From NCBI GenBank assembly GCA_043800905.1, contig JAZDMO010000007.1, positions 1,627-65,626 of the forward strand: DNA of 64,000 bases. The letters are read 5' to 3'. This DNA comes from Patescibacteria group bacterium (lineage in GTDB: Bacteria; Patescibacteriota; Minisyncoccia; Phycocordibacterales; UBA12079). The translations under genes were made by a program, and so were the position numbers. This document shows, one piece after another, positions 35,582 to 60,558 of the stretch (within the stretch, counting starts at the first letter, position 1; every line of letters begins with the position of its first letter). A model generated the notes under the pieces. It was given only the letters and a program-made list of their open reading frames with translations. It was not told where the DNA came from and did not search any database.

Positions 35582-35586
35582 CATAT

Positions 35587-37859: not shown

Positions 37860-37898
37860 TTTTAAATACTGGATACCAAATACTGAATACTATATACT

Positions 37899-39029: not shown

Positions 39030-39035
39030 AAAGAA

Positions 39036-39078
39036 AAGGCCCTACAAGGACGAAACCTTGTAGGGTGATCTTTTCCGT
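39036..39078 (+). terminator. intrinsic terminator
   Basis: aaggccctacaaggacgaaaccttgtagggtgatctttt. Confidence 0.55.
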
Positions 39079-39120
39079 TGGTGATTACTACTATAATATA
39101 CTACTATAATATACAAGTCA

Positions 39121-41225: not shown

Positions 41226-41229
41226 AATA

Positions 41230-44444: not shown

Positions 44445-44445
44445 A

Positions 44446-45117: not shown

Positions 45118-45756
45118 ATGATCAAAATTAAAATATATAAATCAAAAGAAAAGTTAATTAAAGATAAAATTTCTAAAGATGATGTAGTTTTGGATGTGGG
45201 TTTTTGGGGGCAGAATACGAATATAGATAGTAAAGATTGGGTGCATAAAATTTTATTATCTCAGAGTAGTAATGTTTTTGGTGTTGATTTAAATTTCGAT
45301 GGTGGTCGATTGAGAAATCTTGGAAATTATAGAAAACAATCAGCTGAAAATTTTGATTTTGATAAAAAATTTGATGTAATTTTTGCCGGAGATTTAATTG
45401 AGCACCTTTCAAATTTAGGTTTATTTTTGGATTCTTGTAAGAGAAATTTAAAAGATGAAGGAACATTGATAATTACTACCCCAAACGCTTTTGGTCTTTT
45501 TAATATAATGGAAAAACTTTTAAAAAAAGAGCCAAGTGTAAATAGTGATCATACTGTCTATTTTAATTTTATAGTTCTTAAAAAATTATTAGAAAAGAAT
45601 GGCTGGGAAGTTACAGAAGAAAGTTATTTAGATGATGTGTGGCCTAAATATAGACAAAGTCTAAAAAGAAAATTTCTCTATTTGATTTATAAATTTTTTA
45701 ATTTTTTTACTGATAAGTTTGTGGAAAATCTAGTAATTATTGTTAAAAAAAAATGA
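45118..45756 (+). CDS. class I SAM-dependent methyltransferase
   Basis: VLDVGFWGQ (motif I), FDVIFAGDLIEHLSN (motif II/III), TPNAF. Confidence 0.6.
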   Translation: MIKIKIYKSKEKLIKDKISKDDVVLDVGFWGQNTNIDSKDWVHKILLSQSSNVFGVDLNFDGGRLRNLGNYRKQSAENFDFDKKFDVIFAGDLIEHLSNLGLFLDSCKRNLKDEGTLIITTPNAFGLFNIMEKLLKKEPSVNSDHTVYFNFIVLKKLLEKNGWEVTEESYLDDVWPKYRQSLKRKFLYLIYKFFNFFTDKFVENLVIIVKKK

Positions 45757-46475
45757 AAAATAAAGTTGTAATTTATACAGCCATTTTTGGCGGAAAAGAT
45801 AACTTGATTGAACCGGAATTTATTCCTGAAGGATGTGATTTTGTGTGTTTTACTGATTCAGATTTTGTTTCGGGTGTTTGGGAAGTTAGAAAAGTAAAAC
45901 CTGAGTTTGAAGATCCAAACAGAAGCGCAAAAATTTACAAAATTTTGCCTCATAAATATTTTCCAGAATATGAAATTAGTATTTGGATTGATGGAAATAT
46001 GTTGGTGAAAGGGGATGTGAGTGAGTTAATAAAAAAATATTTAAAAGATGTTAACTTTTCAGCTTTTGACCATACCCCCTATAGAAAATTTTGGAAAAAG
46101 TTTTTTCCTTTGAAATTCGAAGAATATCGTGATTGTGTTTACGATGAAGCAAGATTCATTTTAGAGCTTGGTAAAAAGAGAGTGAAATATAAAGATGATC
46201 CTGAATTAATTAAATTTCAAATAGAAAAATATCGTAAAGAAAATTATCCCAAACATAGTGGTTTAATAGTGGGGATGGTTTTGTTGAGAAGACATAATGA
46301 AGAAGATGTCATACAAACAATGGAAGCTTGGTGGCAAGAAATTCAAAATGGAAGTTGTAGAGACCAATTAAGTTTTAATTATGTCGCTTGGAAAAATAAT
46401 TTTAATTTTTGTTATATAGAACAAAGTTCTAGAAAAAACAGGTGGTTTCTACATACACAACACAGGTTAAAATAG
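45753..46475 (+). CDS. DUF616/TOD1-like putative glycosyltransferase
   Basis: VIYTAIFGGKDNL...CFTDSDF...IWIDGNM. Confidence 0.45.
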   Translation: MKNKVVIYTAIFGGKDNLIEPEFIPEGCDFVCFTDSDFVSGVWEVRKVKPEFEDPNRSAKIYKILPHKYFPEYEISIWIDGNMLVKGDVSELIKKYLKDVNFSAFDHTPYRKFWKKFFPLKFEEYRDCVYDEARFILELGKKRVKYKDDPELIKFQIEKYRKENYPKHSGLIVGMVLLRRHNEEDVIQTMEAWWQEIQNGSCRDQLSFNYVAWKNNFNFCYIEQSSRKNRWFLHTQHRLK

Positions 46476-46484
46476 AGCTTTAAA

Positions 46485-47342
46485 TTAAATTTTAAGTATC
46501 TTTTTTAAGATGAGTTTAATTTTCTTTTTAATGCTTGTTTTTTGCCCATAAAACCATTTGTTTTCTCTTTCTGCATATAGTCCTGCATTCAAATATTTTT
46601 TAATATTAATTCTTTCTTTATATTTTTTCCTTTGCTGTTTTAATCTTTCCCCTGTTATGTTTGTGTGGAAGACTGTCCAGTCTTCATCTTCTTCCTTCAT
46701 CAAAGTATAAACTTTGTGTTTTTGAATGTAATTTTCCCAAGCTACCTCGACAGTTCTTCTTTGGTTTGGTTCAGGATTATTTTCTCTAAAACCGGAATCA
46801 ATAAAATCACCTGCATATTCTCGCATAGCTTTTGTGTGAGTGTCTCTTTTTATAAGCGCGAAGTTTTCGCTTAATCTGTCGCTGAAATAATAACCGTCCC
46901 AAGCATTATGATGTTTTGCTTTATAGTTAGAAGAACCGCCAAAGGCAAAAATTTCTCCTTTATTAAGAAAGGAAATTGCTTTTTCTAACCAGCCATCATT
47001 TTTTTGACAATAAGGGAGAGTATCAAATTTAAAAAATAACAAATATTTTTTTCGTGACAAATTGGCAACATGATATTCTCGTATATGAGCAAAATCTTTT
47101 CCTTTTTCTGGATGATTTTCTTTATTTAATGAGAGAGTATCTATTAATCCTTGATCTAATAATTCAAGATAGGCTTTTTTTGTGTTTTGATTGCTTCCTG
47201 CGTCCATAATAATAACTTCTGCTGGTTTTCCACCAAGGAATTTAAACCAGTCCAAAAGAACATCTTTTAAATTTTCATGATTGCCATAATTGGCACAAAC
47301 CATAGAAATTTCATTTAGAATATTTTGTTTATTTTCGCTCAT
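46485..47342 (-). CDS. hypothetical protein, possibly a GT-A-like nucleotide-sugar transferase
   Basis: 285 aa. The VIIMDAGSNQNT segment is only weakly reminiscent of the GT-A DxD region. No firm family. Confidence 0.3.
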   Translation of the reverse strand: MSENKQNILNEISMVCANYGNHENLKDVLLDWFKFLGGKPAEVIIMDAGSNQNTKKAYLELLDQGLIDTLSLNKENHPEKGKDFAHIREYHVANLSRKKYLLFFKFDTLPYCQKNDGWLEKAISFLNKGEIFAFGGSSNYKAKHHNAWDGYYFSDRLSENFALIKRDTHTKAMREYAGDFIDSGFRENNPEPNQRRTVEVAWENYIQKHKVYTLMKEEDEDWTVFHTNITGERLKQQRKKYKERINIKKYLNAGLYAERENKWFYGQKTSIKKKIKLILKKILKI

Positions 47343-47349
47343 AAGTTTA

Positions 47350-48249
47350 TTATTTTTCTATCCATGCAAATAATTTGGTTTTGGTTTTGTATATTGTGTA
47401 TTTCGGAACAAACAATTTTATTTTACTTTCAATTATTTCAGGGTCGTCTGGGAGGTGATAGGTACAAATAGCTATTTTCGGTTTATACTTTTGAATGGTA
47501 TTTCTCGCCCCATCTAGAAATTTTCTTTCAGCTCCCTCTATATCTATTTTTATAAAGTCTATTTTAGTTATAGTTTGATTTTTTTCAATAAAAGAATCTA
47601 GAGTAATTTGTTGTACTTCTTCAATTTCTGTATTTTTCCCTTGTCTTTCGCTAGAGCTACTAACCAATTTATCTTTATTTACAAAAAAATTAATATTTGT
47701 ATTGATATCACCCAGTGCATATGGGAGATATTGAATATTAGTTATATTATTTGTTTTTATATTTTTGTTTAAAAAAATACCCGTTTCTTTTATTGGTTCA
47801 AAGGAAAAAATTTTTCCACCACCTCCTATTTGTTGTGACGCAAATATAGAAAAAAGTCCTATATTTGATCCTGCATCAATGACAACATCATCTTTTTCTA
47901 AAAATACTCCGTTTTCTTCATAGGGGCCTTCAAAATCTAAAAGTAAATTATTATTTAATATGTTCTTTTTTATAAATTCATTTTTAGACAGTAATATTGA
48001 AACAATATCACCCACAGGAAGGTGATTATTGTAAAAAAAAGTATAACCCATACAGACAAAGTTTTTTTCGTTCTGATTATAATCAATGAGATTTCTTTTT
48101 TTTAAAATATTAGGAATCCAATTTCTTTTTTTTAATCTTTTAAAAACAAGATTAGGAGATATTGAGTAAATAATAATAAAAATATTTTTCCCCCAGGATT
48201 CTTTAATAAGAAAATTTATTCTTGGAATTATCTTTTTTAATAAATTCAT
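47350..48249 (-). CDS. FkbM-family methyltransferase
   Basis: VIDAGSNIGLFSIFASQQIGGGGKIFSFEP and IKIDIEGAERKFL. Confidence 0.6.
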   Translation of the reverse strand: MNLLKKIIPRINFLIKESWGKNIFIIIYSISPNLVFKRLKKRNWIPNILKKRNLIDYNQNEKNFVCMGYTFFYNNHLPVGDIVSILLSKNEFIKKNILNNNLLLDFEGPYEENGVFLEKDDVVIDAGSNIGLFSIFASQQIGGGGKIFSFEPIKETGIFLNKNIKTNNITNIQYLPYALGDINTNINFFVNKDKLVSSSSERQGKNTEIEEVQQITLDSFIEKNQTITKIDFIKIDIEGAERKFLDGARNTIQKYKPKIAICTYHLPDDPEIIESKIKLFVPKYTIYKTKTKLFAWIEK

Positions 48250-48328
48250 AAAATTATTATATCATAAAGTTGGGTTCGTTGAGAAAACCTTTATTTTAAG
48301 TGCATATTTGTTTATACTTTAGTTAAAT

Positions 48329-49249
48329 ATGTCTTTAAATCCTAAAATTAGTGTTATTATTCCAACTCACAATAGACCTGAATTATTGGAAAGGGCTATT
48401 CAAAGTGTTTTATGTCAAACATTTCAAGACTTTGAAATTATTGTTATTGATGATGGTTTAGAGAAACGAGCGGATAAAATTATTAGCCAAATTTCAGATG
48501 AAAGAATCCAATATATTCAGAATATTAAAAATTTAGGGGCTTCTGCTTCAAGAAATGTTGGTATTAACAAAGCGAAGGGTAAATACATTACTTTTTTAGA
48601 TGATGATGACGAATTCTATCCAGAGAAAATAGAAAAACAGTATCAAATTATTGAAGCTAGTTTTGAAAAAATAGATTTTGTGTATTGTATTGTTGATGTT
48701 TATTCTCAACAGAGTGGTGATTTTATTTACACACAAAAACATGATTTCAAAGAAGGTGTGCAATCTTTTTTTGAAGAAGCTCTTTCTTTGAAAATGGCAG
48801 TAGCTACCCCTTCAATTTTTTGTAAAAAGAAGAAGGTTTTGGAAATAGGGGGTTTTGATGAAAATTTTCCTAATGCAGAAGATAAAGATTTTTTTATAAG
48901 ATTGTCAAAAAATAGTCAGGGATTTTTTATAAATCAGTCTTTGGTCAAGGTTAATTTTTTTGATGAAAAAGAAAATCGTTTAAGTGGAAATTTAAAATCT
49001 AGAATTATAGGTCGTGAAATGTTAATAAAAAAATATAATACTGATTTATTTAAAAGACCAAAGATTTTAGGTAAACATCTTTTTCTATTAGCTTTTCTTT
49101 ATCAAGAAGATGGTAATTTAAAGAAAACTCAGGAATTGTTTTTTCAGGCGTGGAAATTAGATAAAACAAACTTTATTTTTTTGAAACAGATTTTAAAGAA
49201 TTTATATCTAAGATTTTTTCAAAAGACATTTAATAAAAAATCTAGATAG
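48329..49249 (+). CDS. glycosyltransferase family 2
   Basis: ISVIIPTHNRPELLERAIQSVLCQTFQDFEIIVIDDG...DDDD. Confidence 0.75.
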   Translation: MSLNPKISVIIPTHNRPELLERAIQSVLCQTFQDFEIIVIDDGLEKRADKIISQISDERIQYIQNIKNLGASASRNVGINKAKGKYITFLDDDDEFYPEKIEKQYQIIEASFEKIDFVYCIVDVYSQQSGDFIYTQKHDFKEGVQSFFEEALSLKMAVATPSIFCKKKKVLEIGGFDENFPNAEDKDFFIRLSKNSQGFFINQSLVKVNFFDEKENRLSGNLKSRIIGREMLIKKYNTDLFKRPKILGKHLFLLAFLYQEDGNLKKTQELFFQAWKLDKTNFIFLKQILKNLYLRFFQKTFNKKSR

Positions 49250-50254
49250 AGTTTTCCAGTTTCGCCATTCTTTTAAATCTAATTTTCTTCGTAAAGATGA
49301 CTTCCAAAATTTTTTCCAAATTACCCAGTTTTGATTTGAATTTATACTGCATATTTGTAGCCAGCGTTGAGAAATCATTTCTGAAAATATAGGTTCTTTA
49401 TAAAAATTTGTTATTTTATTTTGAGCTATTAATTTAGATAACCAAAGTTCTTCTTTTTTGAGAAAATCATGGGTTTTATAATTTTCTGGCTTGTATACCT
49501 CTCCATGAATTAAGAGATTTTCTTCTGTTGGTGTAATGTCGAGATTATCTTTCAGTAGGGTGGTTCTTAATTGTGCAATTGCCATTTTTTGTTTTGCAGA
49601 TTGAATTTTACCTGTGTTAGAATCATGAATTCTATATTGAATTAAAGCTTTTTTGATGTTTGTTATAGGAAAATATTTAACAGCATTGCTCCATAAACCA
49701 TAATCTTCTGCATGTTCGTAATTAATGTTATATCTTAAATTATATTTTTCTAGAATATTTTTTCGGGTTATTATTGATGGATGAATTATTATGCATCTAA
49801 ATAACAGAGCAATTTTGATTTTTTCTGGATGAGAAATGGGTTTTGAATATTTATTTATTTTTTTATTTCCTATAATTATTTTTGCCCAAGATCCAGCAAT
49901 ACCAATGTGTGGGTTTTTCTTCATGAATTTTATTTGAATTTCTAGTCTTTTAGGGAAACTAATATCATCTGCATCCATTCTTGCGATGTATTCCCCCCTT
50001 GCTTGATCAAGTCCTTTGTTTAACGATTTAATGACCCCTAAATTAACCTCGTTACTGATGAGTTTAATTCTAGAGTCATTATAGGATTTGATTATTTTTT
50101 CGCTGTTATCGGTTGAGCCATCATTGATAATTAAAAATTCAAAATCAGTGAAGGTTTGGTTAAGAATACTTTCAATTGATTTTTTTAGATATTTTTCACT
50201 ATTATAAACAGGCATTAAGACTGTTATTTTGGGGTTTTTGATATTATTATCCAT
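49208..50254 (-). CDS. glycosyltransferase family 2
   Basis: ITVLMPVYNSEKYLKKSIESILNQTFTDFEFLIINDGSTDNS...ARMDADD. Confidence 0.75.
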   Translation of the reverse strand: MDNNIKNPKITVLMPVYNSEKYLKKSIESILNQTFTDFEFLIINDGSTDNSEKIIKSYNDSRIKLISNEVNLGVIKSLNKGLDQARGEYIARMDADDISFPKRLEIQIKFMKKNPHIGIAGSWAKIIIGNKKINKYSKPISHPEKIKIALLFRCIIIHPSIITRKNILEKYNLRYNINYEHAEDYGLWSNAVKYFPITNIKKALIQYRIHDSNTGKIQSAKQKMAIAQLRTTLLKDNLDITPTEENLLIHGEVYKPENYKTHDFLKKEELWLSKLIAQNKITNFYKEPIFSEMISQRWLQICSINSNQNWVIWKKFWKSSLRRKLDLKEWRNWKTLSRFFIKCLLKKS

Positions 50255-50450
50255 GTTGTTTTAATTTATAGTAATTATTAAAGCATTTTTTAACAATGAC
50301 AGCAATTTTGTTTGAATTCAGGAATTAATTTGTGGGATGAGTCTTAATATTTTTGAGTAAAATATATTGCTATTTTGGGATAAAGGGTGTAGTTTGATAG
50401 GTAGACTGTTCTTTAATTTCAAAATAAAAAAACTAAAAGAGGAGGCAAAA

Positions 50451-51752
50451 ATGAGGAAAAGAATATTACTTATAGATCCGCCCTTTCAAAGATTTATGGG
50501 ATTTTCCAAAACAGGAATTCCTCTCGGGCTGTTGTCTTTGGCAGGAGTTTTGAAAAAAAGAGGTCATTGGGTTGAAGTTCTGGATTCGGATTATAATCCA
50601 AATGGAACCCCTTACCCTTTTATGGATAAAATAGGCCACTATGATGAATACCTTGATAATTTAAATAATGGAAACCATTTAATTTGGGAGGACATTTCTT
50701 CCCAGATTGAGAAATCAAAACCAGATGTGGTTGGTATTTCTTTTATTTCTACCAAATTAAGGAGCGGATTAAGGGTCGCGCAAATTGCAAAAAAGATGGG
50801 TGTAAAAAGAATTGTGGGAGGGGGTCCTCATGTAATAATTCGTCCAGATGATGTTGCTGGCAAAGGTAGTGCTGTTGATTATTTAATTATTGGAGAGGCT
50901 GAAGAACAATTGGATGTTTTTGAAGGAAGCCCTTCTAATAGCGTTATAAAAGCAAGCAGAATAAAAAATTTAGATTCATTGCCTTGGATGGCCAGGGAAA
51001 GTCTTGTGGGGATTCACCATTATCGACCTTCTGATCTTGGTTTTATGATAACCTCAAGAGGGTGTTCTGGGTCTTGCAATTTTTGCTGTTCTGAGAAATT
51101 GTGGGGCAAAAAAGTCAGATTCAGGAGTATTCAAGATGTCATTGCAGAAATGGTTTATGTTAACAAAAAATATGGTACCAAAAAGTTTTATATGACAGAT
51201 GATACTTTTACAATGAATAGAAAAAGAGTTTTTGAATTTACTGACGGGCTTCTTGGAAAAAAATATGAATGGGGTTGTTTGACTCGAGTAGATAGAATAA
51301 ATAGTAAAATGCTTGAACAAATGGTTTTGTCTGGTTGTAATATGATTAAAGTCGGTGTTGAGAGTGGAAGTCAGAGGGTATTAAATTTAATGAACAAGGG
51401 AACAACCCTCAGTCAGGCAAGAGCTGTTGCAAAGTTGCTTAATGATTTTTCTGTAACTTGGCTAGCTTATATAATGGTTGGAGTTCCTGGGGAAACCTCT
51501 GAAGATGTTGATGCCACTATGAAGTTTGTCGATGAAATCAAACCCACTTATGTTAGTGCTTCAATTTATACTCCGTATGTTGGAACTGGTTTTTACAAAA
51601 ACGGTTACGACCATTTATTAAAAGGGAAAATTATGGGCGATTATGCTATCGAAGAAGCAAATCACCACAGTTTAAAAGTTATAGCGGGAGATGTTCCTCG
51701 TGAAAAGATTGTTGAATTCATGAGATTTGCGGATAGTTATAATTCACCCTAG
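50451..51752 (+). CDS. B12-binding-domain radical SAM enzyme (class B radical SAM methylase-like)
   Basis: The N-terminal RILLIDPP...GIPLGLLSLAGVLKKRGHWVEVLD is a B12-binding Rossmann. It is followed by a CSGSCNFCC (Cx3Cx2C) radical SAM cluster motif. The start is placed at the ATG after the aggagg SD (frame of the tracked ORF). Confidence 0.7.
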   Translation: MRKRILLIDPPFQRFMGFSKTGIPLGLLSLAGVLKKRGHWVEVLDSDYNPNGTPYPFMDKIGHYDEYLDNLNNGNHLIWEDISSQIEKSKPDVVGISFISTKLRSGLRVAQIAKKMGVKRIVGGGPHVIIRPDDVAGKGSAVDYLIIGEAEEQLDVFEGSPSNSVIKASRIKNLDSLPWMARESLVGIHHYRPSDLGFMITSRGCSGSCNFCCSEKLWGKKVRFRSIQDVIAEMVYVNKKYGTKKFYMTDDTFTMNRKRVFEFTDGLLGKKYEWGCLTRVDRINSKMLEQMVLSGCNMIKVGVESGSQRVLNLMNKGTTLSQARAVAKLLNDFSVTWLAYIMVGVPGETSEDVDATMKFVDEIKPTYVSASIYTPYVGTGFYKNGYDHLLKGKIMGDYAIEEANHHSLKVIAGDVPREKIVEFMRFADSYNSP

Positions 51753-51901
51753 TGAGTATTTTTGAGAGGGGTCCTTTTATTTTTTTATTTCGAATTATTA
51801 TTGTATTAATGAGTTTTTTGAGACAAAGCGAGATTGGTTTATTCAATCTCGCTTTTCAATTTTCGTAAAATTTTAACAAAAAACTGTTTTTAAAAAATAA
51901 C

Positions 51902-52807
51902 CTAGATTTTCATCCAAGTTAAGGGTATTGGATTATATTTATTTTTTTCTAAATCAGTAAACCACTTTTCAGGGGCTATTACTATTTTGTCAGGGTTTGG
52001 GTTTAACCAAGCTCCCCACCAACTAAAAGAACTGTTAGCAATAACATTGTGTTTACACAAGCTCATCAATATTAAATCTTCATAATTTTTGTTTTCTTCA
52101 ACAAAGGTAATAGAGAATTCGGTTTTAAAATTTTCTTTTGCCCACCAGATATCATCAGAAAAAACAAAGATTTTTAGATCTTTGAATTTTTCTGAAATTT
52201 TTTGGATAGCGTTTTGATAATAATCTAAAGAACAGATTTCATAAATTTTGTTTGTTTTTTTATTATTGATATAATCGCTTCTGCGAATATGGATAGAAAT
52301 TGAATTTGTGTTTTCAATAATCCCTTTTAATTTTTGATTTTTAATTGAGAATTCATTTTTTAAAGTAAATTCTTCACGAATAATATTTTTAATATTTTTT
52401 CCGTTCGAGATAAATCCGTCTTGGGCGGAAAAATATTTTTCGTTTTGCCAATAACCATCTAGATAAATATCTTTGTTGGAATTTTCTAGTATTTTTTTAT
52501 TAAAATTATTCGGCTTTTCAGTAATATAAATTGAATTATCTGAAAAAAATAAATTATAAAAAAGATATTTCCAATTATTTATTTTTTTATATTTCTTTAA
52601 CTTTTTTATTTCGTCATTGTTCGCTATCTTTTCAACTATATTAAAAATTCCTAATTCATATTTGCGAGGAGTCGTGTTTTTTTTAATGTGATTAAACCAA
52701 GAGATATCTAATTTTAATTCGGTTTTATTTTTTTCAGCCAAAGCACGTCCAATTGCATATTGGAACATTTGATTTCCTAAACCGCCTGTTAATTTAACAA
52801 TAATCAT
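51902..52807 (-). CDS. glycosyltransferase family 11 alpha-1,2-fucosyltransferase (FutC-like)
   Basis: GGLGNQMFQYA at the N-terminus, HIRRSDY, CKHNVIANSSFSWWGAWL, KIVIAPEKWF: all four GT11 hallmarks. Confidence 0.7.
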   Translation of the reverse strand: MIIVKLTGGLGNQMFQYAIGRALAEKNKTELKLDISWFNHIKKNTTPRKYELGIFNIVEKIANNDEIKKLKKYKKINNWKYLFYNLFFSDNSIYITEKPNNFNKKILENSNKDIYLDGYWQNEKYFSAQDGFISNGKNIKNIIREEFTLKNEFSIKNQKLKGIIENTNSISIHIRRSDYINNKKTNKIYEICSLDYYQNAIQKISEKFKDLKIFVFSDDIWWAKENFKTEFSITFVEENKNYEDLILMSLCKHNVIANSSFSWWGAWLNPNPDKIVIAPEKWFTDLEKNKYNPIPLTWMKI

Positions 52808-52808
52808 A

Positions 52809-53393
52809 TTATTTATTTTTCAAACCGAGAGTCTCTGCGGCTGTTGTTTTTTGCCTGAATCCTACCACTTTTGCTGGGGCCCCGACAGCAATAGCATATT
52901 CGGGAATATCTTTGGTTACAACACTGCCAGCTCCGATAACGGCGCCTTTTTCTATGGTGACACCGTCTAGTATAGATGAATTTCCTCCTATCCAGACTTC
53001 GTCTTTTATTATGGTTCCTTTCATTTCGTTTCCGCTTGTTTTTATTGACTCTGTTGTTTTTATGTTGTGGTTAGCCCCGGGGATATTTACATTTGGGCCT
53101 ATTGAAACATTATTTCCTATCTTTACTTTTCCACAAATAAAGTTATTAACCCCTAAATCACAATTATCTCCAACAGTTAATTCAATAGGTGATATGAAAC
53201 AATTATGGTAAATCGTTATGTTTTTACCAAATTTAATTTTGTTTTTGTTCCTTATAAAAGTATTGTTGAAAAGCGTAATAGGGAGTTCTATTTTTTCAAA
53301 TTTATTTTTGTTTAAAAAATAAAAAAATAAACCATAAAGTTTTTGTTTGTTCTTAGAATATTTATATAAATAAAACAATCTTTTTCTTAACAT
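52809..53393 (-). CDS. hexapeptide-repeat (left-handed beta-helix) O-acetyltransferase
   Basis: Repeated [LIV]G..xx[IV] hexads (IGNNVSIGPNVNI, IGGNSSILDGVTIEKGAVIGAGSVV). Confidence 0.65.
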   Translation of the reverse strand: MLRKRLFYLYKYSKNKQKLYGLFFYFLNKNKFEKIELPITLFNNTFIRNKNKIKFGKNITIYHNCFISPIELTVGDNCDLGVNNFICGKVKIGNNVSIGPNVNIPGANHNIKTTESIKTSGNEMKGTIIKDEVWIGGNSSILDGVTIEKGAVIGAGSVVTKDIPEYAIAVGAPAKVVGFRQKTTAAETLGLKNK

Positions 53394-55006
53394 ATTGATA
53401 TAATATCATTTTTAACCTTGAATTTTAAGTTTTTGTTTTTATTTTTAATAAATTCTTTTAGTTTGCTTATTGTTGGATAATCATTTTCCCCCACAAAACA
53501 TCTTGCGTCATCAATGAGAATAACATGGTTTTTAATTGGATGATTAAAAATAGCAGTTAACTCTTTGAAGATTGGTGTGTTTAAATTACCTTTGGCGGTA
53601 ATATCTCCAGAATAATGACCGTCAAGCCAAAAAAGGCAAGGTTCATTTATCTCTTTTAAAATACTAGGAAGTATTTCTCCGCTATCCCCGTTTAAAATTA
53701 AAATATTGGTGTTTTGTTTAAACTTATCAACGGCTTTTCTATATAAAGAGATGTCTAATTCAATTGAATAAATCTTTTTAAACATTTTTTCCATTGCCTC
53801 CACCATTTTACCTTTATAGGTGCCCGTTTCTATGAAAGTTTTTATTCTATATTTTCTGGCATATTTTTTTATATTTTTTTGTTTGATTACGTGGGGAGGG
53901 GGGGTTGGTTTGCCTCTAGTTAACCAAATTAAAATAATTAATTGATTTTTTAGATAATTAGCAAATTTATTAAAAAGTATTTTTTTTACAAAAAGTTTAG
54001 ATATTAATTTTATTTTTAATAAAAATAGTTTTAGTTTTTTTAACATAATTTCTTTAATCGTGGGCGGATAGTTATTTTCTGGATTAATTTCTAAAATCTC
54101 ATACCGCAGAGGTTCACCACTCGATGTTTTTTTAATAATTTTTGTAATCATGGGAAAAAGATTATATTCGTCCAAAATCAATTCTTTCGATTGGATAATT
54201 TCTCCTTTCGATTTTTCATAAGTATTATTTTTTAGGGTGTCTTCAATAATTTTTATAGCTTCTCTTGGTTTTTTTATATCAATTACTGACAATGAATTTT
54301 TAGGAAAATATTCGTAAATATTTGAACACCCATAATAAAGTGGGTAACTTTCTCCTAAAAATGCATCAGAGAGTTTTTCTGACCAATAATCTCTATTAGA
54401 ACTATTTTCTAGAACAATATGATATTTATATGGGGCAATAATATCCCATTTATCAGTGAAATCTTTTATATCTTTACCCAAAATATCTATTTTATTTCCA
54501 AAATGTTTTTTTAATTTATTTATGAATTTTAATCTTTGACGGTGTCCTTTTGTGGAGTTTTTATTTGATGAAATTACTGAAATCAACCTACTTTTCTTTA
54601 TTTCTTGGGAACTTTTTAAATTGTCGTAATTTTTAGAAAAGTTTCCCCATGTGTTTATTTCTTTATTATACTCAGCACCAATCATCCATGGCAATGACTC
54701 TTGTTTGTTTAGTATATTTGGATGTTTGATGTTTCTTTGTGACGTAATAATAGTTTCAAATTGTTTTAAAAAATTAGAGTTATATTTTTTTATGTTTTTC
54801 GGTTCCGTTGTAATGAAAATTGTGTTTTTTTTAGGACAAATACAGCTCTCTTTTTGTACTAAACCGCCCAAAATAATCCAGTAATCACATTTTTCAATGT
54901 TTTTGTTTATTGAAAAATGGTAATTCTCCCAGATCCCTTTCGAATTTGGTGTCTGTCTTTCTATAGGCCATTCTGGGGAAGCTGTTGTTAATTTAATTTT
55001 TTGCAT
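53387..55006 (-). CDS. bifunctional: N-terminal GT10 alpha-1,3/4-fucosyltransferase-like domain fused to a C-terminal methyltransferase-like domain
   Basis: The N-domain has YKYHIVLENSSNRDYWSEKLSDAFLGESYPLYYGCSNIYEYFPKNSLSVIDI (GT10 FxLxFENSxxxDYxTEK..P.Y.G motif). The C-domain (approx. residues 340-539) has FIETGTYKG...LFWLDGHYSG...ILIDDARCF and is paralogous to ORF 54993-55709. Confidence 0.55.
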   Translation of the reverse strand: MQKIKLTTASPEWPIERQTPNSKGIWENYHFSINKNIEKCDYWIILGGLVQKESCICPKKNTIFITTEPKNIKKYNSNFLKQFETIITSQRNIKHPNILNKQESLPWMIGAEYNKEINTWGNFSKNYDNLKSSQEIKKSRLISVISSNKNSTKGHRQRLKFINKLKKHFGNKIDILGKDIKDFTDKWDIIAPYKYHIVLENSSNRDYWSEKLSDAFLGESYPLYYGCSNIYEYFPKNSLSVIDIKKPREAIKIIEDTLKNNTYEKSKGEIIQSKELILDEYNLFPMITKIIKKTSSGEPLRYEILEINPENNYPPTIKEIMLKKLKLFLLKIKLISKLFVKKILFNKFANYLKNQLIILIWLTRGKPTPPPHVIKQKNIKKYARKYRIKTFIETGTYKGKMVEAMEKMFKKIYSIELDISLYRKAVDKFKQNTNILILNGDSGEILPSILKEINEPCLFWLDGHYSGDITAKGNLNTPIFKELTAIFNHPIKNHVILIDDARCFVGENDYPTISKLKEFIKNKNKNLKFKVKNDIISIC

Positions 55007-55709
55007 AAATGATTTTTCTCAGTATCTTTTTAATCTTGCGATAATTAAAGCTCGCTTTTTGTCTGAACGGCTCTTTGTATGATTTTGATTTGATATATTT
55101 TATATTATCACACGGGACTATCCTTATAATATCGTTAGAAACTTTAAAATTGATATTACTATTTATTTTTTTTATAAAAGAGAATAGTTCTTTAACAGTT
55201 GGGTATTCATTTTCTCCCGTAAAACATCTTGCGTCATCGATAAGGATTATATGATTTTTAATACGATGATTTAATATAATTTCTAGTTCTTTTAAAATCG
55301 GGGTATTAAGATTACCTCTTGCTGTTATTCCTCCAGAGTAGTGGCCATCTAGCCAAAAAAGTGTGGGTTGATATAAAGTGGGAGTAACCACTTTTAAAAT
55401 ATCAGAACTATCTCCTTGAAGTATTGTTATATGGGTATTATAAATGAATTTTTCTTTTGATTTTTTATATAGATCTTTGTCTAATTCGATTGATATTAAT
55501 TTTTTGAATTTGTTTTTTAAAGCTTCCACTGTTTCTCCTAAGAAAGTACCGGTTTCAATAAAAATATCAATAGAAAATTCCTTAGCATAGTTTTCTATTG
55601 TTTGCCTTTTTATGGTATAGAGGGGAGGACTGATTGGCTTGCCAATAATAAATTTATATAGTTTATTATCAATAGTGTTTAATATCTTTTTAATTTGTTT
55701 TTTTACCAT
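54993..55709 (-). CDS. standalone paralog of the methyltransferase-like domain (TylF/MycF-like fold suspected)
   Basis: FIETGTFLGETVEAL...LFWLDGHYSGGITARGNLNTPILKELEIILNHRIKNHIILIDDARCF. Collinear with the C-domain of the upstream gene over approx. 190 aa. Confidence 0.5.
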   Translation of the reverse strand: MVKKQIKKILNTIDNKLYKFIIGKPISPPLYTIKRQTIENYAKEFSIDIFIETGTFLGETVEALKNKFKKLISIELDKDLYKKSKEKFIYNTHITILQGDSSDILKVVTPTLYQPTLFWLDGHYSGGITARGNLNTPILKELEIILNHRIKNHIILIDDARCFTGENEYPTVKELFSFIKKINSNINFKVSNDIIRIVPCDNIKYIKSKSYKEPFRQKASFNYRKIKKILRKIIYAKN

Positions 55710-56975
55710 TTAGCTATATTTATCTGTTGAATAATCTAAAACCGTAGCAATTTGTCCTTCACTTGACCCTTTAAATATTAGTGATTTTGGGTTGTTTACA
55801 TCAGTTATTTCAAAATAAATATCTTTTTTATGATCAAAAGATTCTATGCAAGGTTCGTGGATAGCAGTAGTGAAATTATAATTTCCTACATTAAACAAAA
55901 ATGACGGGATCTCAACAACGGTTGCGTATTTTCCTGGAGAATAGGTTTTTAGTTTTTTTGTTTTGTCTGATTCAGAAGATTTTAATAGTAGTGTATTTGA
56001 TGAGTAAAATAAGATAGAAAAAAGAGCATTCTCAACCTTTTTAAGAACTTTGTATTCTGTTTTAATAAAAAAGTTTTGGCTAATAGGTATATTGGTTGTT
56101 GGCTTTTTATTTTTATCTAGAATGGAAACTCTTGTGATTTGTGCTTTCTTTTTTTGATCAACTTCAAATTCAGTAACGGCTTTTTTTTCTTTTATCTTGT
56201 TTAAATAATGACTGATAACTTTTTTCGTTTCTCCGATCATTTTTATTTTTCCGTTTTCGATTAGAATACACCTTTTGCAAAGTTTTTTAACGGCTTCTAG
56301 GTTATGGCTTACGAATAGAATAGTTCTTCCTGCTTGGCTGGTGACCTCGTCCATTTTACCAAGGCATTTTTTTTGGAATTCTGCGTCGCCGACAGCAAGA
56401 ACTTCATCTACCAAAAGAATATCAGGTTCCATATGAGCTGCCACAGAAAAACCAAGACGCACTAGCATTCCAGAAGAATATCTTTTTACGGGCGTATCAA
56501 TAAATTTTCCTACTCCTGAAAATTCTACGATAGCATCAAATTTTTCAGCAATTTCTTTTTTAGTCATTCCTAAAATAGCTCCATTAAGAAAAATATTTTC
56601 TCGTCCAGTTAATTCAGAATGAAAACCGGTCCCAACTTCTAGAAGAGAGGCCACTTTTCCGTGCATTCTGATTTCTCCTGTGGTTGGTGGTGTGATTCCT
56701 GTTAAAATTTTAAGTAAAGTAGACTTACCCGCTCCATTGGCTCCGATAATTCCAACAGCTTCTCCTGCTTGAATTTCAAAATCAATGTCTTTTAATGCCC
56801 AAAATTCTTCATTAGTATTTCTCCCTGTAATTTGTTCAGCTTTCTTTTTTAGAAAAGAAAAAGGTTTTTTAGCTATATTGGTTAAAACATCGCGCATTGC
56901 AACATAACTACCTCGTTCATGAGTGATATTGTATTTTTTTGAAATGTTTTTAACAATTATTATTGGTTTATTCAT
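55710..56975 (-). CDS. wzt: ABC transporter ATP-binding protein of the glycan-export (Wzt/TagH) type with a C-terminal glycan-binding domain
   Basis: Walker A GANGAGKST, signature YSSGMLVRL, Walker B ILLVDE. An extra approx. 160-aa C-terminal beta-rich domain is typical of Wzt_C. Confidence 0.8.
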   Translation of the reverse strand: MNKPIIIVKNISKKYNITHERGSYVAMRDVLTNIAKKPFSFLKKKAEQITGRNTNEEFWALKDIDFEIQAGEAVGIIGANGAGKSTLLKILTGITPPTTGEIRMHGKVASLLEVGTGFHSELTGRENIFLNGAILGMTKKEIAEKFDAIVEFSGVGKFIDTPVKRYSSGMLVRLGFSVAAHMEPDILLVDEVLAVGDAEFQKKCLGKMDEVTSQAGRTILFVSHNLEAVKKLCKRCILIENGKIKMIGETKKVISHYLNKIKEKKAVTEFEVDQKKKAQITRVSILDKNKKPTTNIPISQNFFIKTEYKVLKKVENALFSILFYSSNTLLLKSSESDKTKKLKTYSPGKYATVVEIPSFLFNVGNYNFTTAIHEPCIESFDHKKDIYFEITDVNNPKSLIFKGSSEGQIATVLDYSTDKYS

Positions 56976-56987
56976 AATATTTTATAT

Positions 56988-57815
56988 TCATACAACGTCT
57001 GCAAAATATCTTTCGGTTTTTTTGAAAAAATAAAATCCTATTAATAAGACTATTAGACAAACAGTTCCTGAAATTGTTAAAAGTGTCCAATTTATTGGGG
57101 CATTTCCTAATAGAGCTGCACGAGAGGCTTTAATTACTCCAGTCATAGGATTTAAGGCCAAAAGCCATGAATATTTTCCTACAATACTAGCTGGATAAAT
57201 TACTGGGGTGACAAACATCATTATGGAAATGAAAAAAGGTAAAGCATAACGAACATCGCGATATTTAACATTTATAGAAGCAAGAAATAGACCACCTCCT
57301 ACTGAAGCCATAAAAGTAATAAATAGAAGTAGGGGAATAATTAAAAGCCCAATTAAATTTGGTGTGTATTGATAATAAATCATCATTCCAACTAAAATAG
57401 TGGAGGCTATGAAAAAATCAACAAATTTTGTGATTGTAGATGAAATAGGTAAAATTATTCTTGGAAAGTAAACCTTAGTGATAATTCCTTGATTAGAAAT
57501 TAAACAATTACTTACATCTGATAAAGAAGCAGAAAAAAATTGCCAAAATAAAAGTCCAGAGTAAACAAAGATTGGGTAAGGAATTCCGTCTGAAGGCATT
57601 TTAGCAAAGTTTCCGAAAAATATGGTGAAAACAACCATCGTCATGAAAGGTTGAAAAAGAGCCCATAAAATTCCTATGGCTGTTTGTTTGTAGCGAACTT
57701 TAATATCTCTCCAAGTTAGGAAATACAATAATTCTTTGTATTGCCAGATTTCTTTTAAATCGTTAAAACTAAAAGTTTTTTTCGGTTTAATTATGGTTGT
57801 CTTTGAGTTATACAT
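56988..57815 (-). CDS. wzm: ABC-2 type polysaccharide export permease
   Basis: Six TM helices, 275 aa, immediately upstream of and co-oriented with the ATPase. Confidence 0.75.
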   Translation of the reverse strand: MYNSKTTIIKPKKTFSFNDLKEIWQYKELLYFLTWRDIKVRYKQTAIGILWALFQPFMTMVVFTIFFGNFAKMPSDGIPYPIFVYSGLLFWQFFSASLSDVSNCLISNQGIITKVYFPRIILPISSTITKFVDFFIASTILVGMMIYYQYTPNLIGLLIIPLLLFITFMASVGGGLFLASINVKYRDVRYALPFFISIMMFVTPVIYPASIVGKYSWLLALNPMTGVIKASRAALLGNAPINWTLLTISGTVCLIVLLIGFYFFKKTERYFADVV

Positions 57816-60554: not shown

Positions 60555-60558
60555 TTTC

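What the first reader, a model, noticed from the sequence alone, without database searches (positions are those of the whole stretch)
51902..55006. Helicobacter-like GT11 (alpha-1,2) and GT10 (alpha-1,3/4) fucosyltransferase pair in the glycan locus: possible Lewis-like fucosylated glycan
The GT11 protein has all four FutC hallmarks (GGLGNQMFQYA, HIRRSDY, CKHxxIANSxxSWWxAWL, KIVIAPEKW). The N-domain of the 539-aa protein has the GT10 FxLxFENSxxxDYxTEK...PxYxG motif. Co-occurrence of these two families is what builds H/Lewis-type determinants in Helicobacter. In a putative episymbiont it could signal host-glycan mimicry or a fucose-rich cell-surface glycan. No GDP-fucose synthesis genes (gmd/fcl) are visible in the window.
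Basis: partly seen in the sequence, partly recalled or inferred. Interest (0 to 1): 0.65.

Follow-up and report, generated by a model that had tools for sequence, protein, structure and literature searches.

The report
Fucose-adding, methylating glycan export cassette
The two fucosyltransferase genes are real, but they belong to a conserved six-gene unit in a tiny Patescibacteria genome that most likely adds fucose to a surface sugar chain, methylates it and exports it, rather than imitating human-type Lewis blood-group sugars.

Summary
51902..52807(-) is a GT11 (Pfam E 1.7e-30, all four quoted motifs present). The N-half of 53387..55006(-) is a GT10: above Pfam's cut-off, donor-site residues N201/Y207/E210/K211 conserved, and a confident model that best matches H. 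pylori FucT, FUT9 and plant FUT11/13. NCBI already names both genes this way.

The Lewis/mimicry reading is not supported. The pair sits in a tightly packed operon: wzm, wzt with a C-terminal carbohydrate-binding domain, a methyltransferase, GT10 fused to a paralogous methyltransferase, a hexapeptide acetyltransferase, and GT11. This order is conserved in three or four other Patescibacteria loci, one with gmd-fcl directly upstream.

Across 77 metagenomic loci of this GT10 clade, methyltransferases are 5-fold enriched as immediate neighbours (p 2e-8). The clade has fused independently to at least five methyltransferase families.

Best reading: a module that adds fucose and O-methylates (and acetylates) it. 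In this CBD-bearing Wzm/Wzt context it probably makes the non-reducing-end cap that licenses export, as with WsaE or WbdD.

No gmd/fcl is in the window, and the rest of the genome could not be searched. This is a new variant of a known kind, of moderate interest.

The parts
56988..57815 (-). wzm, ABC-2 permease; first gene of the operon
   Evidence: Pfam ABC2_membrane E 1.6e-17. 67-78% identical to the wzm of L001, L003 and L006.
55710..56975 (-). wzt, ABC ATPase with a C-terminal carbohydrate-binding domain (about residues 275-387, nt 55815..56153)
   Evidence: Pfam ABC_tran E 6.7e-22 and Wzt_C E 5.8e-11, 43 bits against a cut-off of 30.4. Best solved relative is full-length Aquifex aeolicus Wzt 8dku, E 2e-72, aligned over residues 47-396 including the CBD. 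56-61% identical over full length to the wzt of L001, L003, L006 and L011.
54993..55709 (-). Stand-alone methyltransferase (238 aa) of an unnamed class I SAM-MT family
54107..55006 (-). GT10 fucosyltransferase domain (residues 1 to about 300) of the 539-aa fusion protein
   Evidence: as given in the observation check. E200, N201, E210, K211 and R158 are invariant across 33 clade members.
53912..54106 (-). Basic, hydrophobic helical linker (residues about 301-365) between the GT10 and MT domains
   Evidence: The model has helices 317-338 and 343-363 with lower pLDDT. Residues 316-363 contain at least 12 Lys and no Asp or Glu. A role in membrane association is inferred, not shown.
53387..53911 (-). 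C-terminal methyltransferase domain (residues 366-539) of the fusion, paralogous to the 238-aa gene
   Evidence: 59% identity over 176 residues to 54993..55709, E 1e-69. 73% identical to the free-standing 208-aa gene that follows a GT10 gene in L011. All SAM-motif residues are retained.
53898..53904 (-). C7 tract on the coding strand, in the interdomain linker (codons 368-370)
   Evidence: It is the only G/C run of 7 or more in the 64-kb window. A +/-1 slip gives stops at codon 373 or 387, that is a GT10 without the MT domain. It is not conserved in relatives and its frequency is near chance expectation, so a role in phase variation is speculative.
52809..53393 (-). Hexapeptide-repeat (left-handed beta-helix) sugar O-acetyltransferase
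   Evidence: Pfam Hexapep E 5.4e-14. Best NCBIfam resemblances are WbbJ, WcaF and NeuD-type polysaccharide acetyltransferases, all below cut-off. It is in the same position in L001/L002 and L003 and absent in L006 and L011.
51902..52807 (-). GT11 (alpha-1,2-fucosyltransferase family); last gene of the operon
   Evidence: Pfam E 1.7e-30 and motifs confirmed. The identical protein is named 'alpha-1,2-fucosyltransferase' by NCBI. Orthologues are 36-67% identical in the same cassette in L001, L003, L006 and L011.
51825..51855 (.). 13-bp-stem hairpin flanked by A and T runs, between the convergent 3' ends of GT11 and the radical-SAM gene; likely a bidirectional terminator
   Evidence: Terminator scan. 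This is a consensus match only.
50367..51752 (+). B12-binding radical-SAM enzyme, inserted between GT11 and the conserved GT2
   Evidence: Pfam B12-binding plus Radical_SAM. It resembles class B rSAM methylases, below cut-offs. It is absent at this position in L001, L003, L006 and L011. B12-rSAM genes are immediate neighbours of clade GT10 genes in 3 of 134 positions.
49208..50254 (-). GT2 glycosyltransferase, a conserved partner that follows GT11 in all related cassettes
   Evidence: Pfam Glycos_transf_2 E 3.6e-39. 38-79% identical to the GT2 next to GT11 in L001, L003, L006 and L011.
34712..49249 (.). Remainder of the glycan locus: an SDR, GT4 genes (one of them split), a GT47-like gene, a GT9-like gene, two FkbM MTs, one Methyltransf_23, a TOD1/MUCI70-like gene, an unknown 285-aa gene and a GT2
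   Evidence: Pfam. The block 42255..50254 is collinear with L011 at 59-87% identity.

Best explanation
The minus-strand operon wzm - wzt(CBD) - MT - GT10::MT - acetyltransferase - GT11 is the export-and-finishing cassette of an ABC-transporter-dependent, lipid-linked surface glycan. The upstream GT4, GT2 and GT9-like enzymes build the chain on the cytoplasmic face. The GT10 domain and the GT11 transfer L-fucose (or a close GDP-6-deoxyhexose) onto it. By family precedent these linkages are alpha-1,3/4 and alpha-1,2. The methyltransferase fused to GT10 and its free-standing paralogue O-methylate that residue straight away, and the acetyltransferase can O-acetylate it. The resulting methylated fucose at the non-reducing end stops elongation and is the cap that the Wzt carbohydrate-binding domain recognises before export. 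Shown here: the family memberships, the domain architecture, the operon packing, the conserved synteny, the statistical coupling of GT10 with methyltransferases, and the gmd/fcl linkage in relatives. Inferred: fucose as the actual sugar in this organism, O- (not N- or C-) methylation of that sugar, the terminal position of the residue, and its recognition by the CBD.
For: Operon packing: intergenic gaps are 12, 0, -14, -7 and 1 nt.

Synteny: the same gene order has orthologous proteins in L001/L002, L003 and L006 (wzm 67-78%, wzt 56-61%, GT10 46-51%, GT11 36-48%, GT2 38-41%), and in L011.

Fucose supply: gmd (578 bits against a cut-off of 415) and fcl (479 bits, E 6e-144) lie immediately upstream of wzm in L001. 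gmd/fcl occur in 7 of 34 clade loci of at least 8 kb and directly abut GT10 in L070, L072 and L076.

Coupling to methyltransferases: in 77 metagenomic loci, MTs make up 35 of 134 immediate neighbours against 24 of 367 genes three or more positions away (odds ratio 5.05, p 2e-8). An unbiased Pfam census of the neighbours agrees.

Independent fusions: the clade is fused to this unnamed MT family (P0002-4, P0361), FkbM (P0008, P0079, P0395, P0428, P0452, P0463, P0480, P0485, P0508), Methyltransf_24 (P0362), Methyltransf_11/23 (P0013) and DUF268 (P0107). There is also a GT10::FkbM::this-MT protein, P0487. A GT11::Methyltransf_24 fusion also exists (P0309).

L011: a divergent GT10 has replaced the orthologue but still sits beside the same MT at 73% identity.

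Transporter: the Wzt carries a Wzt_C domain and is most similar to A. aeolicus Wzt, whose CBD binds a 3-O-methyl sugar cap (PMC9445017). CBD-bearing Wzt proteins export only terminated chains (PMC9445017, PMC11231755).

Precedent: the gene order wzm-wzt-terminator and an MT-GT fusion that makes a methyl cap are known in G. stearothermophilus WsaE, a Gram-positive S-layer glycan system (PMC2943079).

MT fold: it is nearest to O-methyltransferases, including the sugar O-MT SpnH.
Against: No gmd/fcl is present in the 64-kb window or in the 19 kb of the closest related locus, L011, so GDP-fucose supply in this organism is unproven.

The same GT10 clade also occurs in Wzx-type loci (Geotalea L005, Phycisphaerales L008), where no cap logic applies. 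The GT10+MT pair is therefore a general methyl-sugar module and need not be terminal.

Only 42% of clade loci show a recognisable adjacent MT.

Characterised terminators carry a coiled-coil ruler (PMC11231755). The 45-residue helical linker here shows no evidence of one.

The Trp that stacks on the methyl group in the A. aeolicus CBD aligns with Glu in this Wzt (alignment), so cap chemistry cannot be read off by homology.

The MT substrate is unknown, and nothing here has been tested biochemically.
Confidence: 0.5

Rival explanations
1. GT10 and GT11 are chain-building or branching enzymes. They place internal alpha-1,3 and alpha-1,2 fucose residues in the repeat unit of a fucose-rich polymer. 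The methyl and acetyl groups are internal decorations, and the cap read by the Wzt CBD is made by another enzyme, for example the stand-alone MT acting on a different terminal sugar.
For: ABC-transporter-dependent glycans are typically polymerised by a few GTs with alternating linkages, encoded right after wzm-wzt-terminator (PMC11231755, PMC2943079). GT11 and a GT2 are conserved together downstream of GT10::MT. GT10::GT2 fusions exist (P0426 and P0502). The clade also occurs in Wzx-type loci where the residue must be part of a repeat unit.
Against: The repeated, independent fusion of the GT10 itself to methyltransferases, and the presence of two to four MT domains beside it, suggest heavy methylation of the transferred sugar. 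Heavy methylation would block further extension at those hydroxyls.
Confidence: 0.3
2. This is the first reader's reading: a Helicobacter-type GT10/GT11 pair that builds Lewis/H-like determinants for host-glycan mimicry.
For: Both families are present and adjacent. In Helicobacter these two families make Lewis x/y and H antigens (established knowledge of FutA, FutB and FutC).
Against: Similarity to the Helicobacter enzymes is only at family level. There is no identifiable LacNAc-building galactosyl- or GlcNAc-transferase, no heptad-repeat ruler, and no Helicobacter-type poly-C tract in the 5' region. Fused and adjacent methyl- and acetyltransferases would destroy a Lewis epitope. The cassette is shared by environmental Patescibacteria, and its relatives come from sediment, groundwater and soil metagenomes. 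The presumed hosts of such episymbionts are prokaryotes, which carry no Lewis antigens (general knowledge).
Confidence: 0.04
3. The transferred sugar is not L-fucose but another GDP-linked 6-deoxy or dideoxy hexose (for example colitose, 6-deoxytalose or D-rhamnose). Alternatively, the enzymes depend on nucleotide sugar scavenged from a host because the genome makes none.
For: No gmd/fcl is present in the window or in L011. L011 carries a split transketolase and two non-Gmd SDRs between wzt and GT10, which hints at a different sugar pathway there. GT11 contains at least one colitosyltransferase (own knowledge, not checked here).
Against: All structurally characterised GT10 members use GDP-fucose, and the fucose- and GDP-contacting residues are conserved. 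gmd plus fcl, the specific GDP-L-fucose pair, are the nucleotide-sugar genes found beside clade members.
Confidence: 0.12

Closest known systems
Geobacillus stearothermophilus NRS 2004/3a S-layer glycan system (wzm-wzt-wsaE; WsaE = methyltransferase + two rhamnosyltransferase domains)
   Same: It is a monoderm-type cell envelope and an ABC-transporter-dependent lipid-linked glycan. Its wzm, wzt and the next gene are tightly packed or overlapping. A single polypeptide combines a glycosyltransferase with the O-methyltransferase that makes the chain-terminating methyl cap (PMC2943079).
   Different: The sugar there is L-rhamnose from dTDP-Rha, the GT domains are not GT10, the MT is N-terminal, and the MT family differs. 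Here a second paralogous MT, an acetyltransferase and a GT11 accompany the fusion. No cap has been demonstrated here.
E. coli O9a/O8 and K. pneumoniae O3/O5/O7/O12 polymerase-terminator systems (WbdA/WbdD, ORF6-O7, WbbB) with CBM-bearing Wzt
   Same: The gene order is wzm-wzt-terminator-polymerase. The Wzt C-terminal CBM recognises a non-reducing-end modification, and the proteins that mix MT and GT modules are multidomain (PMC3482155, PMC11231755).
   Different: The known terminators are a methyl group, a methyl-phosphate or Kdo, placed on mannose or rhamnose chains, and the terminator proteins carry a long coiled-coil ruler. No fucose-based terminator and no GT10 module has been described in the papers examined. 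The linker here is only about 45 residues.
Aquifex aeolicus WzmWzt (8dku, 7k2t)
   Same: It is the closest solved relative of this Wzt over both the NBD and the CBD (E 2e-72). Its CBD binds a 3-O-methyl-mannose or -rhamnose cap (PMC9445017).
   Different: The CBD is divergent: alone it gives no PDB hit, and the methyl-stacking Trp is not conserved in the alignment. Ligand specificity is unknown.
Helicobacter pylori FutA/FutB (GT10) and FutC (GT11) Lewis-antigen system
   Same: It uses the same two CAZy families. The GT10 GT-B fold and the donor-site residues Asn, Tyr, Glu and Lys are conserved, as are the GT11 motifs.
   Different: Identity is 15-18%. There are no heptad repeats and no LacNAc context. 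The system here is fused to a methyltransferase, is in a Wzm/Wzt operon rather than scattered loci, and the product is probably methylated or acetylated rather than a Lewis epitope.
Rhizobium etli CE3 / R. tropici O-antigens (ABC-transporter-dependent, fucose-rich, methylated or acetylated)
   Same: The R. tropici operon holds wzm, a CBM-bearing wzt, gmd and fcl, and rhizobia methylate and acetylate 6-deoxyhexose O-antigens (PMC12595478). From my own knowledge, not verified here, the R. etli CE3 O-antigen is capped by 2,3,4-tri-O-methyl-fucose.
   Different: The rhizobial fucosyltransferase characterised so far (WrtF) is a GT-A/GT2 enzyme, not GT10. The organisms are diderm Proteobacteria. The R. 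etli papers were not available to check which GT adds the cap.
Cation-dependent class I O-methyltransferases (COMT, CCoAOMT, TrmR; sugar O-MT SpnH of the TylF type)
   Different: Identity is 10-17%. No Pfam or NCBIfam model captures the family, and its substrate and metal dependence are untested.

Membership tests
CAZy/Pfam GT10 (alpha-1,3/4-fucosyltransferases) | Match to the family profile above the curated threshold | tested here: met
   PF00852 at 40.3 bits against a cut-off of 23.9, E 3.5e-10, residues 137-256.
CAZy/Pfam GT10 (alpha-1,3/4-fucosyltransferases) | Donor-site motif FxLxFENSxxxxYxTEK, with the Asn, Tyr, Glu and Lys that contact GDP-fucose in H. pylori FucT (N240, Y246, E249, K250), plus a conserved upstream Arg | tested here: met
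   The phmmer alignment to 2nzw places N201, Y207, E210 and K211 opposite those residues, and R158 aligns with the Arg of FUT9. These residues are invariant or nearly invariant in 33 clade members.
CAZy/Pfam GT10 (alpha-1,3/4-fucosyltransferases) | Two-domain GT-B fold resembling solved GT10 structures | tested here: met
   For the pLDDT-89 model, the top Foldseek hits are 2nzx/2nzy/2nzw (E 5e-9, about 345 columns), 8d0o, 9s6a and 7yro. All are GT10 enzymes.
CAZy/Pfam GT10 (alpha-1,3/4-fucosyltransferases) | Catalytic base Glu in the N-terminal (acceptor) domain (E95 in H. pylori FucT) | tested here: inconclusive
   A nearly invariant Glu (E68, in the 'GEPPS' motif) follows a beta-strand in the N-domain. 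No residue-level superposition could be made.
CAZy/Pfam GT10 (alpha-1,3/4-fucosyltransferases) | GDP-L-fucose-dependent inverting transfer that gives an alpha-1,3/4 linkage | not testable with these tools
   This needs an enzyme assay. Indirect support comes from gmd/fcl lying next to clade members.
CAZy/Pfam GT11 (alpha-1,2-fucosyltransferases) | Profile match above threshold, and the conserved motifs (HxRRxDY and the others) | tested here: met
   PF01531 at 106.7 bits against a cut-off of 23.9. The four motifs are located exactly. NCBI names the identical protein alpha-1,2-fucosyltransferase.
CAZy/Pfam GT11 (alpha-1,2-fucosyltransferases) | Alpha-1,2 transfer of fucose from GDP-fucose | not testable with these tools
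   No solved GT11 structure was found by sequence, and activity needs an assay.
ABC-transporter-dependent, cap-gated glycan export (Wzm/Wzt-CBD polymerase-terminator systems) | Wzm ABC-2 permease plus Wzt ATPase | tested here: met
   Pfam ABC2_membrane and ABC_tran. The best PDB relatives are O-antigen and teichoic-acid exporters.
ABC-transporter-dependent, cap-gated glycan export (Wzm/Wzt-CBD polymerase-terminator systems) | Carbohydrate-binding domain fused to the C-terminus of Wzt | tested here: met
   Pfam Wzt_C at 43 bits against a cut-off of 30.4, residues 275-387. The alignment with A. aeolicus Wzt runs through its CBD.
ABC-transporter-dependent, cap-gated glycan export (Wzm/Wzt-CBD polymerase-terminator systems) | A terminator activity (methyl-, phospho-methyl- or capping-sugar transferase) encoded with the transporter | tested here: inconclusive
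   Two MT domains and a GT10 lie immediately downstream of wzt, in conserved order. Their terminator role is inferred only.
ABC-transporter-dependent, cap-gated glycan export (Wzm/Wzt-CBD polymerase-terminator systems) | Coiled-coil molecular ruler in the terminator protein | tested here: inconclusive
   There is only a helical, Lys-rich linker of about 45 residues (317-363) with modest hydrophobic moment. No coiled-coil prediction tool was available.
ABC-transporter-dependent, cap-gated glycan export (Wzm/Wzt-CBD polymerase-terminator systems) | A modified residue at the non-reducing end that the CBD binds and that is required for export | not testable with these tools
   This needs the glycan structure and binding assays.
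Helicobacter-type Lewis/H antigen synthesis | Close relationship to FutA, FutB and FutC beyond family level | tested here: not met
   E 1e-6 over 86 residues and 15-18% structural-alignment identity to H. pylori FucT, against E 1e-80 to 1e-170 to environmental clade members.
Helicobacter-type Lewis/H antigen synthesis | Enzymes that build the Gal-GlcNAc (type 1/2) acceptor | tested here: inconclusive
   Only generic GT2, GT4, GT9-like and GT47-like genes are present. None can be assigned as a beta-galactosyl- or GlcNAc-transferase.
Helicobacter-type Lewis/H antigen synthesis | An unmodified fucose epitope | tested here: not met
   The GT10 is fused to an MT, flanked by a paralogous MT and followed by an acetyltransferase. 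The MT association is statistically supported for the clade. That the fucose itself is modified is inferred.
Class I SAM-dependent methyltransferases (cation-dependent O-MT subgroup) | Rossmann-like MT fold with a glycine-rich SAM loop and an acidic residue at the end of strand 2 | tested here: met
Class I SAM-dependent methyltransferases (cation-dependent O-MT subgroup) | Membership of a named sequence family (Pfam Methyltransf_3, Methyltransf_24, TylF, FkbM and so on) | tested here: not met
   The best hits are RrnaAD at 21.6 bits (cut-off 24) and Methyltransf_24 at 12.7 bits (cut-off 26.3). Nearly all of the 120 listed homologues carry no Pfam domain.

The most novel reading that the evidence does not exclude
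GT10::methyltransferase proteins are single-polypeptide 'add-and-methylate' terminators. They install a (poly-)O-methyl-fucose cap that a dedicated Wzt carbohydrate-binding domain reads before export. This would be the first fucose-based chain terminator and the first GT10 module in a polymerase-terminator pathway. It would also give a first mechanistic handle on how Patescibacteria build their surface glycan. The C-terminal domain would define a large (more than 5000 members), so far unnamed family of sugar O-methyltransferases. The C7 tract in the interdomain linker could additionally switch the methyltransferase domain on and off.
Probability: 0.35. Interest if true: 0.55.

Novelty: new variant of a known kind. 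Interest (0 to 1): 0.4.

Why it matters
Almost nothing is known experimentally about the cell-surface glycans of Patescibacteria (CPR), although their surfaces mediate attachment to host cells. This cassette gives a concrete, testable prediction: a methylated, possibly acetylated, fucose-bearing glycan exported by a cap-reading ABC transporter. It also offers a compact two-domain enzyme that could be expressed and assayed. More broadly, the recurrent fusion of one GT10 clade with at least five methyltransferase families flags a widespread 'methyl-fucose module' in environmental bacteria, and it points to a large unannotated methyltransferase family. It does not reveal a new kind of system. The logic is that of known polymerase-terminator pathways, and automated annotation already names both fucosyltransferases.

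Tried and rejected
- Looking up the exact 539-aa protein in the gene-position index found nothing on record.
- The scan of species-representative genomes found only three distant loci and not the source MAG. So the rest of the 82-kb contig and of the genome could not be searched for gmd, fcl or fkp.
- Literature searches for the R. etli CE3 tri-O-methyl-fucose cap genes (wre genes) and for the Mann/Kimber/Whitfield survey of terminators found that these papers are not held. That analogy therefore rests on my own knowledge.
- The promoter scan was uninformative: 36 sites against 35.9 expected.
- The Wzt CBD alone gave no PDB hit by sequence, so cap chemistry could not be inferred from binding-site residues.
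- The hydrophobic moment of the linker is unremarkable: 0.30-0.36 against a protein-wide 0.24 +/- 0.13. I therefore do not claim an amphipathic membrane anchor or a coiled-coil ruler.
- I considered that the 289-aa SDR at 34712..35581 might be Fcl or Gmd and rejected it. It scores 32-35 bits against cut-offs of 415-500 and is 25% identical to the real enzymes.
- My first impression that every clade member has an adjacent methyltransferase (8 of 8 hand-picked contexts) did not survive the larger sample, which gave 42%. The enrichment at the adjacent position did survive.
- I considered phase variation through the C7 tract and demoted it to an aside, because the tract is not conserved and is near chance frequency.

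Full report
**1. The observation**

The window is low-GC (about 0.27-0.35). It carries type IV pilus genes, a tRNA cluster and a large glycan locus. NCBI labels the identical proteins as coming from a 'Patescibacteria group bacterium' MAG, on an 82,274-bp contig.

- **GT11.** The 301-aa product of 51902..52807(-) is a clear GT11: PF01531, E 1.7e-30. It contains all four quoted motifs at residues 8-18, 173-179, 251-268 and 274-282.
- **GT10.** The 539-aa product of 53387..55006(-) matches the GT10 profile above Pfam's cut-off (40.3 against 23.9 bits, residues 137-256). By sequence alone it finds human FUT9, H. pylori FucT, Arabidopsis FucTA and mango FUT13 among solved structures.
- **Donor site.** In the alignment to H. 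pylori FucT, the residues known to contact GDP-fucose (N240, Y246, E249, K250; numbering from my knowledge of that structure, positions read from the alignment) correspond to N201, Y207, E210 and K211. These are invariant or nearly so in 33 clade members.
- **Fold.** A pLDDT-89 model of the whole protein has H. pylori FucT, aligned over about 345 columns, as its best structural match, followed by FUT9 and plant GT10 enzymes.

It is also not new at the annotation level: NCBI already calls these proteins 'glycosyltransferase family 10' and 'alpha-1,2-fucosyltransferase'.

**2.

Residues 365-539 of the 539-aa protein are a separate domain. It is 59% identical (E 1e-69) to the adjacent upstream 238-aa ORF, 54993..55709(-).

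Between the GT10::MT gene and the GT11 lies a hexapeptide-repeat acetyltransferase resembling polysaccharide O-acetyltransferases.

Upstream on the same strand are wzm and wzt. The Wzt carries a C-terminal Wzt_C carbohydrate-binding domain. Over its full length it is most similar to Aquifex aeolicus Wzt (E 2e-72).

The six genes are separated by 12, 0, -14, -7 and 1 nt. They end at a strong hairpin shared with a convergent gene. They therefore form one operon: wzm - wzt(CBD) - MT - GT10::MT - AcT - GT11. It sits at the end of a glycan locus of about 23 kb (34.7-57.8 kb) that is rich in GT4 and GT2 genes and in further methyltransferases.

**3. Conservation**

The same gene order, with orthologous proteins, occurs in other Patescibacteria contigs.
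- L001/L002: fusion protein 51% identical.
- L003: fusion protein 50% identical.
- L006: the GT10 is fused to an FkbM-type methyltransferase instead.
- Across these loci, wzm is 67-78% identical, wzt 56-61%, GT11 36-48%, and the following GT2 38-41%.

In L001 a clear gmd (578 bits, cut-off 415) and a near-cut-off fcl (479 bits against 500, E 6e-144) lie immediately upstream of wzm.

L011, a Pacebacteria MAG, carries the same large locus at 59-87% identity gene for gene. Its GT10 slot, however, holds a divergent GT10 that matches only around the donor motif. That GT10 is directly followed by a free-standing gene 73% identical to the window's fused methyltransferase domain, then by two more methyltransferases and the orthologous GT11. 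So the fusion in the window corresponds to adjacent genes elsewhere, and the GT10-MT-GT11 arrangement is kept even when the GT10 is replaced.

**4. Is the GT10-methyltransferase link more than anecdote?**

- **Exhaustive search.** A search of 1.84 billion representative proteins found 1600 hits at E below 1e-30. Only two 50%-identity clusters share the exact GT10 + this-MT architecture.
- **Longer clade members.** Among those examined by Pfam:
  - Nine carry a C-terminal FkbM domain.
  - One each carries Methyltransf_24, Methyltransf_11/23 or DUF268.
  - Two carry a GT2 domain.
  - One (P0487) has GT10 + FkbM + this-MT.
  - The unnamed MT family is itself found fused to FkbM (P0385) and to DUF268 (P0488).
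- **A second fucosyltransferase family.** A GT11 fused to Methyltransf_24 also exists, in a wzm-wzt(Wzt_C) locus.
- **Larger sample.** I fetched 80 further metagenomic loci of the clade, called genes locally and classified the neighbours.
  - A recognisable methyltransferase is fused or immediately adjacent in 32 of 77 loci (42%, a lower bound).
  - Methyltransferases make up 35 of 134 immediate neighbours (26%) against 24 of 367 genes (6.5%) three or more positions away (odds ratio 5.05, Fisher p 2e-8).
- **Unbiased census.** A Pfam census of the 134 immediate neighbours gives the same picture: FkbM 12, the Methyltransf_11/25/12/23/31 group about 11, DUF268 3, B12-radical-SAM 3, GT2 13, GT4-type about 11.
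- **GDP-fucose genes.** gmd/fcl occur in 7 of the 34 loci of at least 8 kb and directly abut the GT10 in three.
- **Other neighbours.** wzm/wzt (9 of 77) and GT11 (12 of 77) are occasional partners, not obligatory ones. Some clade members sit in Wzx-type loci.

**5. Mechanism**

The literature establishes the following.
- A Wzt with a C-terminal carbohydrate-binding domain exports only chains whose non-reducing end has been capped. Known caps are a methyl group, a methyl-phosphate or a special sugar such as Kdo (PMC9445017, PMC11231755, PMC3482155).
- The terminator is typically encoded right after wzm-wzt.
- MT-GT fusion proteins do this job in, for example, the Gram-positive S-layer glycan system of G. 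stearothermophilus. There WsaE makes a 2-O-methyl-rhamnose cap, and wzm, wzt and wsaE overlap (PMC2943079).

On that basis the best-supported reading is as follows. The GT10 domain adds a fucose. The fused and neighbouring methyltransferases O-methylate it, and the acetyltransferase may acetylate it. This modified terminal residue is what the Wzt CBD recognises. GT11 adds a second, alpha-1,2-type fucose, either as part of the cap structure or of the repeat.

The robust part of this reading is that a fucosyl (GDP-6-deoxyhexosyl) transferase is functionally coupled to methyltransferases. I put that at roughly 0.65-0.7. The cap-and-gate part is inference by analogy. I put the whole statement at about 0.5.

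The main rival (0.3) is that GT10 and GT11 are polymerising or branching enzymes for internal, decorated fucose residues.

**6.

Nothing ties this pair to Lewis/H determinants.
- Similarity to the Helicobacter enzymes is family-level only.
- There is no identifiable LacNAc-building enzyme and no heptad-repeat ruler.
- The predicted modifications would abolish a Lewis epitope.
- The cassette is shared by environmental Patescibacteria. The relatives recovered here all come from genome and metagenome assemblies of uncultured organisms.

No gmd/fcl is in the window, nor in the 19 kb examined of the nearest related locus. The rest of the MAG could not be reached. A different GDP-sugar or a scavenged precursor therefore remains possible (about 0.12).

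**7. Novelty and verdict**

The system follows known logic (ABC-transporter-dependent glycan assembly with terminal modification), and both fucosyltransferases are already named by automated annotation. Three things appear new:
- the use of a GT10 module fused to a methyltransferase in such a cassette;
- the breadth of independent GT10-MT fusions;
- the unannotated methyltransferase family.

I rate it a new variant of a known kind, with moderate interest (0.4). If the methyl-fucose cap were demonstrated, it would be the first fucose-based terminator and a useful entry point into Patescibacteria surface biology (interest about 0.55, probability about 0.35).

Noticed in passing
window 53898-53904: The only G/C homopolymer of 7 or more bases in the 64-kb window (C7 on the coding strand) lies in the disordered linker between the GT10 and MT domains. 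A +/-1 slip would end the protein at residue 372 or 386, giving a stand-alone GT10. The tract is not conserved in L001, L003 or L011, and about 0.6 such runs are expected by chance.
   Followed up: partly
window 50367-51752 (+): A B12-binding radical-SAM enzyme (class B rSAM methylase-like) is inserted between GT11 and the conserved GT2, on the opposite strand. It is absent at this position in L001, L003, L006 and L011. B12-rSAM genes are, however, immediate neighbours of clade GT10 genes in 3 of 134 positions. It might C-methylate a sugar. The listed TTG start gives a 27-residue leader before an internal Met.
   Followed up: partly
window 40196-40666 and 40620-41225 (+): Two overlapping ORFs (156 aa with no Pfam hit, and 201 aa with only the C-terminal half of a GT4/Glycos_transf_1 domain) look like one GT4 gene split by a frameshift. 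This could be a pseudogene, an assembly error or a programmed shift.
   Followed up: no
window 46485-47342 (-): This 285-aa protein has no Pfam or NCBIfam match, yet it is the most conserved gene of the locus (87% identical to its L011 counterpart, against 59-79% for the flanking GTs and MTs). It is an unknown but strongly constrained component of the glycan pathway.
   Followed up: partly
window 17464-18198 and 20652-22219 (+): Several pseudopilin-like ORFs in the type IV pilus cluster carry two to four tandem, degenerate copies of a prepilin-leader-like segment ('KKQDSLKFQ(S/T)GFT(P/L)SEIF...') upstream of the real 'GFTL(I/V/T)E' cleavage-site helix. This is an unusual repeated N-terminal extension.
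   Followed up: no
window 4882-6456 (+): A multi-pass membrane protein with C-terminal TPR repeats and a weak TMTC/DUF1736 match is a GT-C-type (protein O-mannosyltransferase-like) enzyme, far from the glycan locus. No Wzy_C-type ligase or oligosaccharyltransferase and no initiating phosphoglycosyltransferase were found in the window, whereas L003 has a Wzy_C+TPR protein and L001 a Bac_transf gene near the cassette.
   Followed up: partly
L011 1205-4920: In the closest related locus, a split transketolase (N and C halves) and two non-Gmd SDR genes sit between wzt and the GT10. This suggests a different or additional sugar-nucleotide pathway, possibly for a branched or chain-extended sugar, in that organism.
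   Followed up: no
window 31426-34675 (+): A VirD4/TraG-like coupling ATPase is followed by a secreted protein with two lamin-tail domains and a PKD domain, directly upstream of the glycan locus. A GmrSD/HNH-type nuclease (1679-2770) and an HTH/toxin-like pair (3786-4854) lie near the window start.
   Followed up: no
window 58839-63651 (+): An HlyD-type membrane-fusion protein and an AcrB-family RND transporter (E 3e-176) lie immediately beyond the operon. An RND pump with a periplasmic adaptor is notable in a lineage generally regarded as having a single membrane.
   Followed up: no
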